A stretch of 64,000 nt of DNA, taken from the NCBI GenBank assembly GCA_009840175.1, contig VXOI01000216.1, forward strand, positions 1,774 to 65,773, in the 5' to 3' direction. Source of the stretch: Chloroflexota bacterium (GTDB taxonomy: Bacteria > Chloroflexota > Dehalococcoidia > Lucifugimonadales > UBA3495). A program made the position numbers and the translations under genes. Shown piece after piece: positions 25,683 through 28,902 of the stretch. How positions within the stretch are numbered: the first letter of the stretch is position 1; each line of letters opens with the position of its first letter. The notes under the pieces are model-generated. The model was given only the letters and a program-made list of their open reading frames with translations, was not told the origin of the DNA and did not search any database.

Positions 25683-26042
25683 CTAGGCGGCGCGCAACCG
25701 CGCTTCGCCTGTGGGGTTTCCCTGCATCGTGGCTTCCCGGCAGCGCTGCATAACGCGGAATACGGTCCGCACGGTTACCGAGAAGCGCTCGGCAGTTTCT
25801 TCAAGGCTCAATGATTCCTGTTGCATAATGTGCAACATACGAAAGTCGCTGGCCAGGCGACGATTGCGCTGGTACCAGGCCGGGTCGTCATACCTGCATT
25901 GGGGCAGCGGGCAATCGAGGCAGGAGTCCGAGGCTTCGCAGCCAGTATCCTCGTAGTGGTAGAATTCCGAAGCGTCATCGGAGAAAGCGCGTCCGTAATT
26001 TGAGCTGGCGGATTCAGGGCGGGCGGCAAGCAGCGTAACCAT
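25683..26042 (-). CDS. Small Cys-rich HTH transcriptional regulator (unassigned family)
   Basis: C-terminal HTH LSLEETAERFSVTVRTVFRVMQR, preceded by the cluster C-x5-C-x2-C-x4-C (GCEASDSCLDCPLPQC). Start chosen at MVTLLAARP. The ORF track extends to 26102. Confidence 0.6.
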   Translation of the reverse strand: MVTLLAARPESASSNYGRAFSDDASEFYHYEDTGCEASDSCLDCPLPQCRYDDPAWYQRNRRLASDFRMLHIMQQESLSLEETAERFSVTVRTVFRVMQRCREATMQGNPTGEARLRAA

Positions 26043-26080
26043 AACTGACCCCCAAACAGGCGTTCTAATAACGTAGAAAT

Positions 26081-26147
26081 AATTTAGAACATGAGTACAC
26101 ATCTTGTCAACTCTTTTACGACTGAATTTGAGAAAATGTTCTAAATT
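26081..26147. promoter_or_regulatory. Candidate operator pair in a divergent promoter region
   Basis: Perfect 12 bp inverted repeat: AATTTAGAACAT (26081-26092) and ATGTTCTAAATT (26136-26147). A third half-site-like GTTCTAA lies near 26062. AT-rich region between the regulator and the enoyl-CoA hydratase gene. Confidence 0.5.
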
Positions 26148-27022: not shown

Positions 27023-27055
27023 CCCTCTCCCAGCGGGAGAGGGTTAGGGTGAGGG
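27023..27055. repeat. REP-like hairpin repeat, family A copy 3 (inverted orientation)
   Basis: CCCTCTCCC-AGC-GGGAGAGGG-TTA-GGGTGAGGG. Confidence 0.8.
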
Positions 27056-27082: not shown

Positions 27083-27424
27083 TTACCCCTCCACTTCCAC
27101 CTGCTGCATTCCGTAGGGCGACTTGCCGACAACCATGCCGTTATCGAGTTGCACCACCGCCTTCAGGTTGCGAAAGAACAGGAAGGTCCGTAAGTCTATT
27201 TGCAGGCTGACGGTATGCCTTGACAGTTCGGGAAGAGTAAGTAACTCCACGTCGTTCAGCCTGTGGGACTCGTAGGCGGAAACGTCCCGCCGGTGCACCC
27301 TGGTATCAACTGATACCTCCACGGCGCACCCGGCTCAAGAGGAGTGTTGCAGCAAATCAACCGCCGCCCGCCCTCCTTGATTGAGGATGTGTTCCGCCGC
27401 CCGCTGACTCAGTATTATTTCCAT
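27083..27424 (-). CDS. Candidate HesB/IscA-like selenoprotein with in-frame TGA (Sec) at 27335-27337, motif U-A-G-C
   Basis: ATG at 27422-27424 with GAGGT upstream gives MEIILSQRAAEHILNQGGRAAVDLLQHSS-TGA-AGCAVEVSVDT.... The TGA is in frame with the 79-aa GTG-start ORF 27083..27322 in the track. The N-terminus matches the IscA/HesB pattern M-x-I-x-L-S-x-x-A-A-x-x-I, and the TGA sits where IscA has its first conserved Cys (TSGCSG). A strong stem-loop starts right after the TGA. Confidence 0.6.
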
Positions 27425-27469
27425 GATGTTACCTCAGGTCGCAGGTTAGATGACATTTGCTGTCAGGGG

Positions 27470-28081
27470 TTATCCACTACCCAGCAGCAAGGCGTTTATC
27501 GTCGACACGCTGGCTGGGTGTACCGGTCTGCGGCGTTGCAGGCGCAGGGCCGACTCGCGGCAGAGGAACTCCAGCACGGCTTGATGCAGGCTTTCGTTGG
27601 CGACGTGACGCAGTTCCTGCTGGTAGGGGTAGGACTTTATCTTGTTGGGATCCAGCTTGTCGGCGATGAACACCAGCAGGCCCAGCGGCGTTAATCTGGG
27701 GTGCCCGGTGGTGTGAAAGCGCACCGCGTCTAGTATCTCTTCGTCGTCCAGGCCGTCCTCATGACGCAGCAGTTCCGCACCCACTGGGCCGTGCAGCGTT
27801 ATTGGGGCCTTCCGCTCGATGTCCAACAGCGGCAACTCGAAACGGTCGGCTTGACGCAGGATTTCCTTTTTCTTTGCCGCTCTCGCAACGTCGTGGCCCA
27901 GAATTGCCAGTTCGGCCCGTTCCTCGTCAATGCCGTGCCGCGCCGCCAGGTCCAGCCCCACATCCCTCACACGGAATATGTGGGCGCGCAACTTGTCGGG
28001 CAGCGAGTCAAACCGCTCCCGGAGCTTGGCGTTGGCTCCTTCGACGAGCTCAGGATGGACAAGCGAGCTGGAAGTGGTCAT
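27470..28081 (-). CDS. HD-domain phosphohydrolase, YqeK-like
   Basis: ILGHDVARA (HD motif), RFHTTG, FIADKLDPNK. 4-nt overlap with the upstream HIT gene. Confidence 0.75.
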   Translation of the reverse strand: MTTSSSLVHPELVEGANAKLRERFDSLPDKLRAHIFRVRDVGLDLAARHGIDEERAELAILGHDVARAAKKKEILRQADRFELPLLDIERKAPITLHGPVGAELLRHEDGLDDEEILDAVRFHTTGHPRLTPLGLLVFIADKLDPNKIKSYPYQQELRHVANESLHQAVLEFLCRESALRLQRRRPVHPASVSTINALLLGSG

Positions 28082-28428
28082 CCCATATCACCCAGTTGCC
28101 GCCCGCCCATCAGGTGGACATGAGGGTGAGCAATGGTCTGCTGTGCATCTGGCCCCTGGTTCAGCGTCAGCCGGTAGCCGCTGAGGGTGACGTTCTCGCG
28201 GCGGGCCATCTCCTCTGCCACCACGAACAGGTGCCCCATGACGGGCACCTGGCCTGGGCCGACGTAGGCCAGCGACGCGATGTGCATATTGGGAATGACC
28301 AGCAGGTGCACTGGCGACTTTGGGTTGATGTCCCTGACGACGAAACAGCGGTCATCACGGTATAGCACGTCCGGGTTGGCCGTATCGCGCGCTATGGAGC
28401 AGAAGATACATTGCGTGGCAGTGGTCAT
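28078..28428 (-). CDS. HIT (histidine triad) family protein
   Basis: CIFCSI.. N-terminus and the histidine triad HPHVHLMGG. Confidence 0.9.
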   Translation of the reverse strand: MTTATQCIFCSIARDTANPDVLYRDDRCFVVRDINPKSPVHLLVIPNMHIASLAYVGPGQVPVMGHLFVVAEEMARRENVTLSGYRLTLNQGPDAQQTIAHPHVHLMGGRQLGDMG

Positions 28429-28461: not shown

Positions 28462-28902
28462 TCACAAGGGAGCCGACTGCCCGGCCAGCCGCTCCAGCCG
28501 CCTGCGCTGGGCACGAGTCTCGACAGTGAAGGACGCCGGAAGCTGGGGGCTGACGGATTCCAGTTCGGCCAGATATTCCTTTATCCTGCCGATGGCATAC
28601 TCCACCCCTTCTTCGTGTTCCCAGTTTTCGTAGAAGTTCTGGTGCATGGATTTGGCAGACTGGAACATATCCCGCAAATCGGGACGCCCCAACTCGTCGA
28701 TTACTTGGTTGGAAATATCGAACAGCAACGAGTGAGACTGGTGGTGCCATCCACGCCCTTCGGCGATGGACTTGAGAGCACAAGCCGTTGCACCCCAGGA
28801 CTTCTCCGAAGCCTGTTTAAGGTCTCCCTGCCGCAGGTAGTCCTCGGCCCGGGCCATGTACTCCTGGCTCATGGCAGCATACTTGTTGTTGGGGGTCGTC
28901 AT
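28462..28902 (-). CDS. PaREP1/HEPN-like domain protein
   Basis: YMARAEDYLRQGDLKQASEKSWGATACALKSIAE...MHQNFYE resembles, from memory, the PaREP1/PaREP8 helical family. Confidence 0.55.
   Translation of the reverse strand: MTTPNNKYAAMSQEYMARAEDYLRQGDLKQASEKSWGATACALKSIAEGRGWHHQSHSLLFDISNQVIDELGRPDLRDMFQSAKSMHQNFYENWEHEEGVEYAIGRIKEYLAELESVSPQLPASFTVETRAQRRRLERLAGQSAPL

What the first reader, a model, noticed from the sequence alone, without database searches (positions are those of the whole stretch)
27083..27424. Likely missed selenoprotein: HesB/IscA-like ORF with in-frame UGA, a U-x-x-C motif and a SECIS-like hairpin
**What the sequence shows (minus strand).**
- An ATG at 27422-27424, with GAGGT 7-11 nt upstream, opens a 29-codon frame: MEIILSQRAAEHILNQGGRAAVDLLQHSS.
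- That frame reaches a TGA at 27335-27337.
- The TGA is exactly in frame with the 79-aa GTG-start ORF in the track (27083..27322).
- Five codons (A-G-C-A-V) connect the two pieces. Read-through gives a 113-aa product with the local sequence HSS-U-AGC-AVEV.

**Family fit.**
- The N-terminus follows the IscA/HesB signature (M-x-I-x-L-S/T-x-x-A-A-x-x-I/V).
- The TGA falls where E. coli IscA has its first cluster-ligand Cys (RTSGCSGM).
- The C-terminal CGCG ligands of IscA are absent, so a U-x-x-C redox couple looks more likely than Fe-S scaffold chemistry.

**Hairpin.** Immediately 3' of the UGA the mRNA can fold as follows.
- Lower stem: GCCGG(G)UGCGCC pairs with GGUGCACCGGC.
- An internal loop follows.
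- Upper stem: GGUAUC pairs with GAUACC.
- Apical loop: AGUU, about 23 nt after the UGA, with G at loop position 2.

This is the geometry I recall for bacterial SECIS elements.

HesB-like selenoproteins have been reported in prokaryotic selenoproteome surveys. Ordinary gene callers would annotate only the truncated 79-aa piece.
Basis: partly seen in the sequence, partly recalled or inferred. Interest (0 to 1): 0.8.

Follow-up and report, generated by a model that had tools for sequence, protein, structure and literature searches.

The report
Missed selenoprotein gene, IscA-like fold
This is a real 113-codon gene whose internal UGA almost certainly encodes selenocysteine; gene callers cut it short everywhere, but it belongs to an already catalogued small selenoprotein family, so it is an annotation fix, not a new kind of system.

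Summary
On the minus strand, ATG 27424, an in-frame TGA at 27337-27335 and TAA at 27085-27083 define a 113-codon frame.

Evidence that the TGA is read as selenocysteine:
- All 33 orthologous loci found, all Dehalococcoidia/Chloroflexota MAGs, have ATG, a conserved 29-residue N-terminus and TGA at codon 30. Their true terminators vary (TAA/TAG/TGA).
- dN/dS is 0.13 upstream of the TGA and 0.12 downstream.
- 23 nt after the UGA lies a 6-bp hairpin. Its loop is GGUC in all 33 orthologues (AGUU here), the same tetraloop as E. coli fdhF.
- Synonymous change in the hairpin codons is about 16-fold suppressed, and one compensatory pair exists.
- Distant homologues carry Cys at the Sec column and lack the hairpin.

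Family and fold:
- The protein matches NCBIfam NF041239 / Pfam PF28096 ("CC/Se motif family (seleno)protein"), below cutoff (34.3 vs 40 bits).
- A model of a 50%-identical homologue has the IscA/SufA fold.

Caveats:
- UxxC is not conserved (Cys33 in 23 of 34), so it cannot be the shared mechanism.
- The Sec machinery could not be checked in this genome.

Verdict: a new, mis-annotated member of a known family.

The parts
27083..27424 (-). Full selenoprotein coding sequence: 113 codons plus TAA, with Sec at codon 30. Product: MEIILSQRAAEHILNQGGRAAVDLLQHSS-U-AGCAVEVSVDTRVHRR...VEVEG
   Evidence: Translation. Colinear tblastn matches over residues 1-113 in 33 loci, all with ATG and TGA at codon 30. 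dN/dS is 0.127 for codons 1-29 and 0.115 for codons 42-100.
27431..27435 (-). Shine-Dalgarno-like GAGGT, 6 nt before the ATG
   Evidence: Sequence. Purine-rich GAGG/GGAG/AGGG motifs sit at the same distance in most orthologous loci.
27422..27424 (-). ATG start codon
   Evidence: ATG in 34 of 34 sequences.
27335..27337 (-). In-frame UGA, the proposed selenocysteine codon (codon 30)
   Evidence: TGA in 34 of 34, while the terminal stops vary TAA/TAG/TGA. The preceding base is T in 34 of 34. Cys aligns at this column in nine full-length distant homologues.
27326..27328 (-). Cys33 codon (TGC), giving U-A-G-C in this clade
   Evidence: Cys in 23 of 34 orthologues; N, S or P in the others. It is a clade-specific feature.
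27289..27334 (-). SECIS-like element as a whole: lower stem 27334-27323 with 27299-27289, an internal loop, and the upper hairpin
   Evidence: MFE fold. The lower stem is paired in 74% of cells, with a CG to GC compensatory change at pair 5:48 in 7 sequences.
27302..27317 (-). Upper SECIS hairpin GGUAUC-AGUU-GAUACC. The apical loop is 27311-27308, with G and U at loop positions 2 and 3
   Evidence: Paired in 100% of cells, with an A:U to G:C compensatory change in L029-L032. The loop is GGUC in 33 of 33 orthologues, the same as the E. coli fdhF apical loop. Synonymous divergence pS is 0.037 against about 0.59 in the flanks. It meets the published bSECIS constraints (PMC13188914).
27083..27322 (-). 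The truncated 79-aa GTG-start ORF that gene callers report, which is an artefact
   Evidence: Codon 35 is GTG in only 9 of 34 orthologues; the rest are GTT, ACT or ATC, which are not start codons. Public calls start at inconsistent places, giving 64 to 82 aa.
27023..27043 (-). Intrinsic-terminator-like hairpin (9 bp, 7 G-C) followed by AATTTTTT, about 40 nt after the stop codon
27470..28081 (-). Upstream same-strand neighbour: YqeK-type HD phosphohydrolase (bis(5'-nucleosyl)-tetraphosphatase)
   Evidence: TIGR00488, 112 bits against a cutoff of 70; Pfam HD. It lies upstream on the same strand in 32 of 33 loci and in L035.
28078..28428 (-). HIT-family (HinT-like) gene, overlapping the yqeK start by 4 nt
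   Evidence: Pfam HIT and DcpS_C. Conserved position in 32 of 33 loci.

Best explanation
The locus is one gene for a 113-residue selenoprotein.

Recoding (inferred from comparative evidence). Translation starts at ATG 27424. At UGA 27337-27335 the ribosome inserts selenocysteine instead of terminating. An mRNA hairpin inside the coding region acts as a bacterial SECIS element for the elongation factor SelB carrying Sec-tRNA(Sec). The hairpin has a lower stem and a 6-bp upper stem, and it displays G-U in a 4-nt apical loop 23 nt after the UGA. Translation then continues to TAA 27085-27083, and an intrinsic terminator follows.

Protein (family shown, fold shown on a homologue). It is a divergent Dehalococcoidia subfamily of the catalogued 'CC/Se motif family (seleno)protein' (NF041239/PF28096). 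It has an A-type Fe-S carrier (IscA/SufA/HesB) fold. Sec sits in the beta-hairpin loop that holds the first ligand Cys (Cys35) of IscA, within an invariant U-x-G motif.

Chemistry (inferred, about 0.4). The C-terminal Cys ligands are absent and the neighbouring Cys33 is not conserved. The selenol most likely acts as a single exposed nucleophile or ligand, for example in redox, chalcogen or metal hand-over, possibly across a dimer. Building an Fe-S cluster is less likely. In this clade Cys33 could form a selenenylsulfide with Sec30.

Context. The gene is the last member of a conserved HIT-YqeK-selenoprotein cluster.
For: Codon conservation:
- 33 of 33 orthologous loci are colinear over residues 1-113 or 1-100. 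All have ATG, TGA at codon 30 and a conserved N-terminus.
- Terminal stops vary TAA/TAG/TGA, while codon 30 is TGA in 34 of 34.
- dN/dS for codons 1-29 is 0.127 at dS 1.15, equal to the downstream region at 0.115.

Hairpin:
- The upper hairpin is 100% paired, with a compensatory A:U to G:C change made by two synonymous substitutions.
- Synonymous divergence in hairpin codons 36-41 is 0.037 against about 0.59 elsewhere.
- Loop GGUC is identical to the E. coli fdhF apical loop.
- G23 and U24 of that loop are the conserved, SelB-relevant bases (PMC8659212).
- All four published bSECIS constraints are met (PMC13188914).

Cys homologues:
- Nine full-length Cys homologues align Cys to the Sec column.
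- The two whose DNA was read (P0160 in L043, P0210 in L040) lack the hairpin.

Genetic code and family:
- TGA is an ordinary stop for 12 of 43 long ORFs in the window, so the code is not reassigned.
- NF041239 E = 1.8e-8 over the full length. All 18 subfamily members tested hit it. PF28096 CC_Se_fam hits relatives.
- The family is listed as a selenoprotein family in PMC13188914.

Fold:
- AlphaFold model of homologue P0092: pLDDT 75.5, pTM 0.68.
- The nine best PDB matches are all IscA/SufA-type or putative Fe-S-biosynthesis proteins, led by SufA 2d2a (E 1.8e-4, TM 0.54).

Lineage and synteny:
- Dehalococcoidia MAGs are among the most selenoprotein-rich bacteria, with 46-49 selenoprotein genes (PMC13326102).
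- Synteny with HIT and YqeK holds in 32 of 33 loci.
Against: - No selA, selB, selD or tRNA-Sec could be shown for this genome. None lies in the 64-kb window or in the 33 flanking loci, and the whole genome could not be reached.
- No other credible selenoprotein gene was found in the window.
- The window's apical loop is AGUU, not the GGUC of every orthologue. G and U at positions 2 and 3 are kept, but function is untested.
- There is no bulged U like U17 of E. coli fdhF.
- The NF041239 score of 34.3 bits is below the curated 40-bit cutoff.
- The family's Cys next to Sec is Ser here.
- The fold evidence comes from a 50%-identical homologue at moderate confidence. hhalign to IscA is not significant, at probability 11%.
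- A related clade has CGA (Arg) at the Sec column yet keeps the hairpin. The hairpin could therefore have some role besides Sec insertion.
- No experimental data exist.
Confidence: 0.88

Rival explanations
1. There are two separate cistrons. A 29-codon leader peptide ends at UGA, and the downstream ORF is translated on its own from the GTG. The hairpin would be a regulatory or attenuator structure.
For: - Every public gene call treats it this way, giving products of 64-82 aa. 29-aa N-terminal fragments are also called (P0215, P0225).
- 8% of TGAs in the window have a comparable hairpin by chance.
Against: - The stop is TGA in 34 of 34, whereas true stops drift among TAA, TAG and TGA.
- The frame and the 5-codon spacing never vary.
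- Codon 35 is a start codon in only 9 of 34 sequences.
- There is no Shine-Dalgarno sequence before it.
- Cys homologues are continuous proteins with Cys at that column.
- dN/dS is equal on both sides of the TGA.
Confidence: 0.04
2. The UGA is read through as a standard amino acid rather than Sec. Candidates are Cys via a selC*-type tRNA-Cys(UCA) with a SelB paralogue, or Trp/Gly by near-cognate reading or code reassignment.
For: - Some database translations show W at this column (P0092, P0113, P0114).
- SelB-like systems that deliver Cys at UGA have been described (Mukai 2017, as cited in PMC7609411).
Against: - Where the DNA was read, the W is a translation-table artefact over a TGA codon (P0113 in L035).
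- TGA terminates 12 of 43 long ORFs in the window and 5 of 34 copies of this very gene.
- The hairpin has the canonical SelB-type GGUC loop.
- As cited in that review, selC* tRNA-Cys was found in Firmicutes, Thermodesulfobacteria, Nitrospirae and Proteobacteria, with no Chloroflexota named.
Confidence: 0.05
3. It is a pseudogene, a nonsense-mutated remnant of a Cys-type gene.
For: - An in-frame stop is present.
- Related sequences with CGA or GGA at the column show that the codon can mutate.
Against: - The same TGA is kept in 34 species-level genomes at dS above 1.
- Strong purifying selection acts on both sides.
- Start, Shine-Dalgarno-like motif and synteny are intact across the orthologues, and the window copy is followed by a terminator-like hairpin.
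Confidence: 0.01

Closest known systems
CC/Se motif family (seleno)protein: NCBIfam NF041239 'Moor_selen_rel', Pfam PF28096 CC_Se_fam, first predicted in Moorella thermoacetica
   Same: - Full-length colinear HMM match, residues 1-88 to profile positions 1-87 of 91, E = 1.8e-8.
- All 18 subfamily members tested match.
- Sec falls on the family's Cys/Sec column and G32 is conserved.
- Small size, about 100 aa, with a single Sec.
- Already catalogued as a selenoprotein family (PMC13188914).
   Different: - The score of 34.3 bits is below the curated 40-bit cutoff.
- The residue before Sec is Ser, not Cys. P0229, which passes the cutoff, has C29-C30.
- The listed CxxU motif is absent: His27 here, Cys27 only in L032.
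- This clade has Cys at +3 instead.
- It has the conserved FLFFRNLKA...NG C-terminal half and no C-terminal Cys.
- It has a fixed HIT-YqeK neighbourhood that the two Cys-form relatives examined (P0210, P0160) do not share.
A-type Fe-S carrier proteins IscA, SufA and ErpA (Pfam PF01521 Fe-S_biosyn; PDB 2d2a, 1x0g, 1r94, 1s98)
   Same: - Predicted fold: Foldseek probability 1.00, TM 0.50-0.57.
- The N-terminal M-x-I-x-L-[ST]-x-x-A motif is shared.
- Sec aligns with the first ligand Cys35 in RTSGCSG.
   Different: - No Pfam hit, even at E <= 10.
- hhalign probability is only 11%.
- The C-terminal C-G-C ligands are absent, so a 3-Cys Fe-S site cannot form.
HesB-like selenoprotein (TIGR01911, motif UxGP) and IscA_HesB_Se (NF038090)
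   Same: - Same idea: Sec replaces the first Cys of an IscA/HesB-type protein.
- U-x-G is invariant here, and L032 even has U-S-G-P.
- One subfamily member gives a faint NF038090 hit, E = 0.09.
   Different: - No TIGR01911 hit.
- It is a different sequence family.
E. coli fdhF SECIS element
   Same: - A hairpin inside the ORF just 3' of the UGA.
- The apical tetraloop GGUC is identical in 33 orthologues, and the window keeps its G and U.
- The UGA-to-loop distance is 23 nt here against 18 nt in fdhF.
   Different: - There is no bulged U in the upper stem.
- The window loop is AGUU.
- The lower stem is longer and G+C-rich.

Membership tests
Bacterial selenoprotein gene (Sec-UGA plus bSECIS) | In-frame UGA conserved in orthologues, with coding conservation on both sides | tested here: met
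   TGA in 34 of 34. dN/dS is 0.127 upstream and 0.115 downstream.
Bacterial selenoprotein gene (Sec-UGA plus bSECIS) | Homologues with Cys aligned to the UGA column | tested here: met
   P0160, P0166, P0180, P0189, P0194, P0202, P0210, P0195 and P0229.
Bacterial selenoprotein gene (Sec-UGA plus bSECIS) | bSECIS model: apical loop of 3-9 nt, upper stem of 4-16 bp, G in the first two loop positions, 16-37 nt from UGA to loop, MFE <= -7.5 kcal/mol | tested here: met
   Loop AGUU, 6-bp stem, 23 nt, -28.8 kcal/mol for the element. Constraints taken from PMC13188914. No bSECISearch program or Rfam model was available.
Bacterial selenoprotein gene (Sec-UGA plus bSECIS) | RNA-level conservation or covariation of the SECIS | tested here: met
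   100% pairing, one compensatory pair, pS 0.037 against 0.59 in the flanks.
Bacterial selenoprotein gene (Sec-UGA plus bSECIS) | selA, selB, selC and selD present in the same genome | not testable with these tools
   None lies in the window or in the 33 loci, and whole genomes could not be reached. The class Dehalococcoidia is documented as rich in selenoproteins (PMC13326102).
Bacterial selenoprotein gene (Sec-UGA plus bSECIS) | Selenium shown in the protein by 75Se labelling or mass spectrometry | not testable with these tools
   This needs an experiment.
CC/Se motif family (NF041239 / PF28096) | HMM score at or above the curated cutoff (40 bits) | tested here: not met
   34.3 bits, E = 1.8e-8, over the full length. 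PF28096 is not in the local Pfam copy, but it is precomputed on relatives.
CC/Se motif family (NF041239 / PF28096) | Cys/Sec at the family's motif column, in a colinear protein of about 90-110 aa | tested here: met
   Alignment A5.
CC/Se motif family (NF041239 / PF28096) | A partner Cys next to or 3 residues before the Sec (CC, CU or CxxU) | tested here: not met
   The window has H27-S-S29-U30. Only L032 has C27. The CxxU motif is as listed in PMC13188914.
HesB-like selenoprotein (TIGR01911) | HMM match | tested here: not met
   No hit at E <= 10.
HesB-like selenoprotein (TIGR01911) | UxGP motif | tested here: not met
   The window has U-A-G-C. U-x-G is invariant, but Pro occurs only in L032.
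A-type Fe-S carrier IscA/SufA (PF01521) | Pfam HMM match | tested here: not met
   No families at E <= 10.
A-type Fe-S carrier IscA/SufA (PF01521) | IscA/SufA fold | tested here: met
   The model is of homologue P0092, not of the window protein itself. The nine best PDB matches are all IscA/SufA-type or putative Fe-S-biosynthesis proteins.
A-type Fe-S carrier IscA/SufA (PF01521) | Three ligand cysteines, C...C-G-C | tested here: not met
   Only the first position is occupied, by Sec. There is no C-terminal Cys.

The most novel reading that the evidence does not exclude
The Dehalococcoidia proteins could form a functionally distinct subfamily: IscA-fold selenoproteins with a single, partnerless selenocysteine. 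In this reading the subfamily works together with the invariably adjacent YqeK (Ap4A hydrolase) and HinT-like HIT enzymes. One example would be a selenium or sulfur acceptor/carrier in a nucleotide-linked pathway, which would be a selenium-dependent process not yet described. Related to this, the retention of an intact, compensated SECIS hairpin in relatives with CGA at the Sec column could mean sense-codon Sec recoding in those organisms.
Probability: 0.12. Interest if true: 0.7.

Novelty: new member of a known kind. Interest (0 to 1): 0.4.

Why it matters
- **Annotation.** All but a few of the roughly 200 public protein records found for this subfamily are 5'-truncated calls of 64-82 aa that lack the active-site residue. 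In an exhaustive search, 78 of 89 family representatives are truncated. This locus shows how to correct them.
- **HMM threshold.** The curated NF041239 threshold misses the Dehalococcoidia branch.
- **Structure.** The locus links the 'CC/Se' family to the IscA/HesB fold.
- **Partner cysteine.** The cysteine that partners Sec is evolutionarily mobile. It is at -1 or -3 in the canonical family, at +3 in this clade, and absent in marine clades. This constrains ideas about the chemistry.
- **Clean SECIS example.** The SECIS here has an fdhF-like GGUC loop, measurable suppression of synonymous change, and covariation.
- **Limit.** None of this changes the general understanding of Sec decoding.

Tried and rejected
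**Searches that found nothing**
- Local Pfam-A gave no hit for the joined protein, even at E <= 10.
- Rfam found nothing at gathering thresholds over the whole window, nor at E <= 10 on 27150-27480. I know of no curated bacterial SECIS family in Rfam.
- ARAGORN found no tRNA in the window or in the 33 loci.
- tblastn with E. coli SelA, SelB and SelD against the window plus all loci gave no hits.
- Two screens for further selenoprotein genes in the window gave only out-of-frame junk apart from this gene. One looked for TGA plus hairpin plus ORF context; the other for TGA-split ORFs outside long genes.
- A PDB sequence-profile search gave only non-significant hits: SETD1B at E 1.1 and DsrR at E 1.6.
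- No supplementary tables of the BSepDB paper were held, so I could not check whether these MAGs are listed.

I modelled the 50%-identical homologue P0092 instead.

**Apparent counter-examples that were rejected**
- P0023 (123 aa, 'LICCKTLLEPGC') looked like a sense read-through with a CC motif. Its DNA (L038, a 4x-coverage long-read contig) shows indel frameshifts around an intact TGA in the standard frame.
- P0092, P0113 and P0114 carry 'W' at the column. P0113's DNA (L035) has TGA, so the W comes from translation under a TGA=Trp table.

- I did not adopt the UxxC redox couple as the conserved mechanism, because Cys33 is missing in 11 of 34 orthologues.
Full report
**1. Observation**

On the minus strand the window reads GAGGT (27435-27431), six bases, then ATG (27424-27422). 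Twenty-nine codons follow (MEIILSQRAAEHILNQGGRAAVDLLQHSS), then TGA at 27337-27335. Next come five codons (AGCAV) and the GTG at 27322 that opens the 79-aa ORF 27083..27322 listed by the ORF finder. Read through, the frame is 113 codons ending in TAA.

The lower stem is GCCGG(G)UGCGCC/GGUGCACCGGC. An internal loop follows, then the upper stem GGUAUC/GAUACC. The apical loop AGUU begins 23 nt after the UGA. The 76-nt region has an MFE of -35.1 kcal/mol, z = -2.33, and 2 of 200 shuffles fold as well.

The hairpin on its own is not strong evidence. Of the 1705 TGA trinucleotides in the window, 8% have a hairpin of at least 6 bp with a G in the first two loop positions at 16-37 nt.

**2. Comparative test of the coding frame**

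A protein search with the joined translation (U written as C) returned 111 relatives. Almost all are 64-82-aa calls that begin after the TGA.

A scan of species-representative genomes returned 33 loci, all from Dehalococcoidia or Chloroflexota MAGs. The tblastn matches were colinear over query residues 1-113 or 1-100. Translating them gave the following:
- Every locus has an ATG at the same place, preceded in most by a purine-rich Shine-Dalgarno-like motif.
- Every locus has a conserved 29-residue N-terminus and TGA at codon 30.
- The real terminators of the same genes vary among TAA, TAG and TGA, whereas codon 30 is TGA in 34 of 34.
- Codon 35, the supposed GTG start of the truncated ORF, is GTG in only 9 of 34. 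The rest are GTT, ACT or ATC, so the truncated ORF has no conserved start.

Among the 23 closer sequences, dN/dS is 0.127 for codons 1-29 (dS 1.15) and 0.115 for codons 42-100. The segment upstream of the TGA is therefore translated and selected just like the rest.

TGA is not reassigned in this genome. It ends 12 of the 43 long ORFs in the window.

**3. The hairpin as a SECIS element**

I aligned the 66 nt from the UGA onward in 34 sequences.
- The upper hairpin is paired in 100% of cells.
- L029-L032 carry GGUGUC/GACACC instead of GGUAUC/GAUACC. This is a compensatory A:U to G:C change made by two synonymous substitutions, GTA to GTG and GAT to GAC.
- The lower stem is paired in 74% of cells. 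It has a CG to GC swap at one pair in seven sequences.

Codons 36-41 (EVSVDT, the hairpin) have a synonymous divergence of 0.037, against about 0.59 in the flanking codons. By contrast, invariant residues elsewhere (A9, I13, G17, G18) use three or four codons each. This is RNA-level constraint.

The apical loop is GGUC in all 33 orthologues. It matches the apical tetraloop of the E. coli fdhF SECIS, which I read from the E. coli genome: UGA at codon 140 and the loop 18 nt downstream. In E. coli, G23 and U24 of that loop are the conserved bases and G23 is a SelB contact (PMC8659212).

The window is the outlier, with AGUU. Both changes are synonymous. They keep G and U at loop positions 2 and 3. 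They also change loop positions 1 and 4 from G·C to A·U. L035 has C·G at these positions, which hints that positions 1 and 4 pair.

All four constraints of the published bacterial SECIS model are met (PMC13188914). Those constraints are a loop of 3-9 nt, a stem of 4-16 bp, a G in the first two loop positions, 16-37 nt from the UGA, and MFE <= -7.5 kcal/mol. Rfam gave no match in this region.

**4. Cys homologues**

An exhaustive profile search of 1.84 billion cluster representatives found 89 family members:
- 78 begin at profile position 35 or later, so they are truncated calls.
- 2 are 29-aa N-terminal fragments.
- 9 are full-length.

The full-length ones (P0160, P0166, P0180, P0189, P0194, P0202, P0210, P0195, P0229) carry Cys at the column of the TGA, mostly as G-C-G-[KG]. 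Most also have a second Cys three or four residues from the C-terminus. The two whose DNA I read, L043 and L040, have no hairpin, even though one keeps the peptide EVSVST. A Sec/Cys pair with the hairpin restricted to the TGA genes is the classical signature of a selenoprotein.

Three apparent counter-examples are artefacts:
- P0023 (123 aa, 'ICCKTLLEPGC') comes from a 4x-coverage long-read contig. Its standard frame reads ...DLLQNSS*AG.
- The 'W' of P0113 overlies a TGA codon.
- P0092 and P0114 carry the same 'W', so the same explanation is inferred for them.

**5. What family it is**

Local Pfam-A finds nothing, not even Fe-S_biosyn. NCBIfam gives one hit, NF041239 'CC/Se motif family (seleno)protein'. 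The match has E = 1.8e-8, 34.3 bits against a 40-bit cutoff, and covers residues 1-88 on profile positions 1-87 of 91. All 18 subfamily members tested hit it, the best at E = 3.4e-12. Relatives carry the precomputed Pfam family PF28096 CC_Se_fam.

A 2026 review lists this family as a selenoprotein family first predicted in Moorella thermoacetica, with motif CxxU. It lists the HesB-like selenoprotein separately as TIGR01911, with motif UxGP (PMC13188914).

The window protein departs from the named motif. It has H27-S-S29-U30-A-G32-C33. Only L032 has Cys27 (CxxU). P0229, which passes the cutoff at 45.4 bits, has C29-C30.

It is Asn, Ser or Pro in the marine clades. Gly32 is invariant across the 34 orthologues, so U-x-G is the conserved motif.

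**6. Fold**

The tools would not accept the read-through sequence of the window. I therefore modelled P0092, a 106-aa homologue that is 50% identical, using a 12-row alignment. The model has mean pLDDT 75.5 and pTM 0.68. The Sec column lies in the turn between strands 19-28 and 34-40.

The nine best Foldseek matches in the PDB are all IscA/SufA-type or putative Fe-S-biosynthesis proteins:

| PDB entry | Protein | E-value | TM-score |
|---|---|---|---|
| 2d2a | E. coli SufA | 1.8e-4 | 0.54 |
| 1x0g | IscA with [2Fe-2S] | 2.5e-4 | 0.55 |
| 1r94, 1s98 | E. coli IscA | 1.7e-3, 1.8e-2 | 0.50, 0.51 |
| 2p2e, 2apn, 1nwb | further matches of the same type | 2.1e-3 to 1.2e-2 | 0.44-0.48 |

DsrR (2k4z) follows at rank 11.

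The sequence-level links are weak but point the same way:
- hhalign to E. coli IscA has a probability of 11%, yet it places Sec on Cys35 of RTSGCSG.
- DsrR scores E = 1.6 in the PDB profile search.
- One subfamily member gives a faint NF038090 IscA_HesB_Se hit.
- The Cys form P0160 gives a faint hit to NfuA.

It is not a family assignment.

**7. Context**

The gene is followed by a terminator-like hairpin at 27043-27023 plus a T-run. An enoyl-CoA hydratase gene converges on it.

Upstream on the same strand lie a YqeK-type HD phosphohydrolase (27470-28081; TIGR00488, 112 bits) and a HinT-like HIT protein (28078-28428). Further upstream are a PaREP1-family gene and an acyl-CoA dehydrogenase gene.

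The order HIT, YqeK, selenoprotein gene is kept in 32 of 33 loci, including those only about 50% identical. It is also kept in the more distant L035. The two Cys-form relatives examined (P0210, P0160) have other neighbours.

In seven loci, 1-2 kb of extra DNA sits between yqeK and the gene. Co-transcription is therefore not obligatory.

**8. Mechanism**

Shown by comparative evidence: one ORF, a conserved UGA, a constrained SECIS-type hairpin and Cys homologues.

Inferred: SelB carrying Sec-tRNA(Sec) binds the hairpin and decodes the UGA as Sec.

The protein's chemistry is inferred only. Sec occupies the first-ligand position of an IscA-type fold. The C-terminal ligands are gone and no partner Cys is conserved. 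I therefore favour a single exposed selenolate acting as nucleophile or ligand (redox, chalcogen or metal transfer, perhaps across a dimer) over Fe-S scaffold chemistry. In this clade Cys33 could form an optional selenenylsulfide with Sec30. I put about 0.4 on that functional reading and about 0.88 on the gene encoding a selenoprotein.

**9. What could not be done**

The Sec machinery could not be sought in the whole genome. None of selA, selB, selD or tRNA-Sec lies in the window or in the 33 flanking loci. I found no second selenoprotein gene in the window.

The literature shows that Dehalococcoidia MAGs of the same naming series are among the most selenoprotein-rich bacteria known, with 46-49 selenoprotein genes (PMC13326102). 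This makes the machinery likely but does not prove it for this genome.

**10. Verdict**

This is a genuine selenoprotein gene, systematically mis-annotated. It is a divergent, sub-threshold member of a catalogued family, so I rate it a new member of a known kind, of moderate interest.

The most curious loose end lies outside the window. Relatives with CGA (Arg) at the Sec column keep a perfect SECIS hairpin, even a compensated one.

Noticed in passing
L036:514-819, L037:189-494 (P0115); L048:533-838, L049:280-585 (P0116): A related clade has CGA (Arg) at the Sec column, in the context LIC-MS[ST]-R-ST, with the invariant Gly32 replaced. Even so, it keeps a perfect SECIS-type hairpin with a GGUC loop. 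P0115 and P0116 differ from each other by the compensatory pair GGUAUC/GAUACC versus GGUGUC/GACACC. Sister sequences seem to have a stop at that codon (P0215, P0168). This could be a fossil SECIS after recent Sec loss, a second role for the hairpin, or (speculatively) sense-codon Sec recoding. The contigs are at most 1 kb.
   Followed up: partly
L034:203-523 (P0112): This variant has GGA (Gly) at the Sec column and two new cysteines just upstream (LVCACVGGG). Its hairpin is kept but the loop is GGUA. The contig has only 1.4x coverage, so it could be a real Sec-to-Cys-relocation variant or contain errors.
   Followed up: partly
window 27308-27311 (minus strand), compared with alignment A2 columns 27-30: The window's apical loop AGUU differs from the GGUC of all 33 orthologues at loop positions 1 and 4. 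L035 has CGUG. The three versions (G..C, A..U, C..G) would all allow a Watson-Crick pair between loop positions 1 and 4, leaving only G-U exposed.
   Followed up: partly
window 27338 and 27334 (minus strand); alignment A2: The base before the UGA is U in 34 of 34 sequences (codon 29 is always TCT or ACT, whereas Ser28 uses four codons). The base after the UGA is G in 33 of 34. This suggests a constraint on the context of the Sec codon.
   Followed up: no
L004:7770-10000; also L003, L007, L012, L015, L016, L017: In seven loci, 1-2 kb is inserted between yqeK and the selenoprotein gene. In L004 the insert carries ORFs of 97 and 159 aa, plus a 397-aa ORF on the opposite strand. It also contains a duplicated copy of the yqeK 3' end (...VHPASVAAINALLL), which suggests mobile DNA inserted at this spot.
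   Followed up: partly
window 28462-28902 (minus strand); L003, L004, L014: A PaREP1/PaREP8-family gene, a family described as archaeal, sits upstream of the HIT gene. Its copy number varies: three copies in L003, two in L004 and L014, and none in L018 or the marine clades.
   Followed up: no
window 25683-26102 (minus strand): A conserved 139-aa ORF with a Cys-rich stretch (CEASDSCLDCPLPQC) has no Pfam or NCBIfam hit. It is syntenic in nearly all loci at 51-86% identity.
   Followed up: no
L038:1501-1872 (P0023): This public 123-aa 'full-length' protein comes from a 4x-coverage long-read contig. It is a double-frameshift artefact that skips the TGA. The yqeK gene in the same locus is also split into two calls of 130 and 67 aa.
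   Followed up: yes
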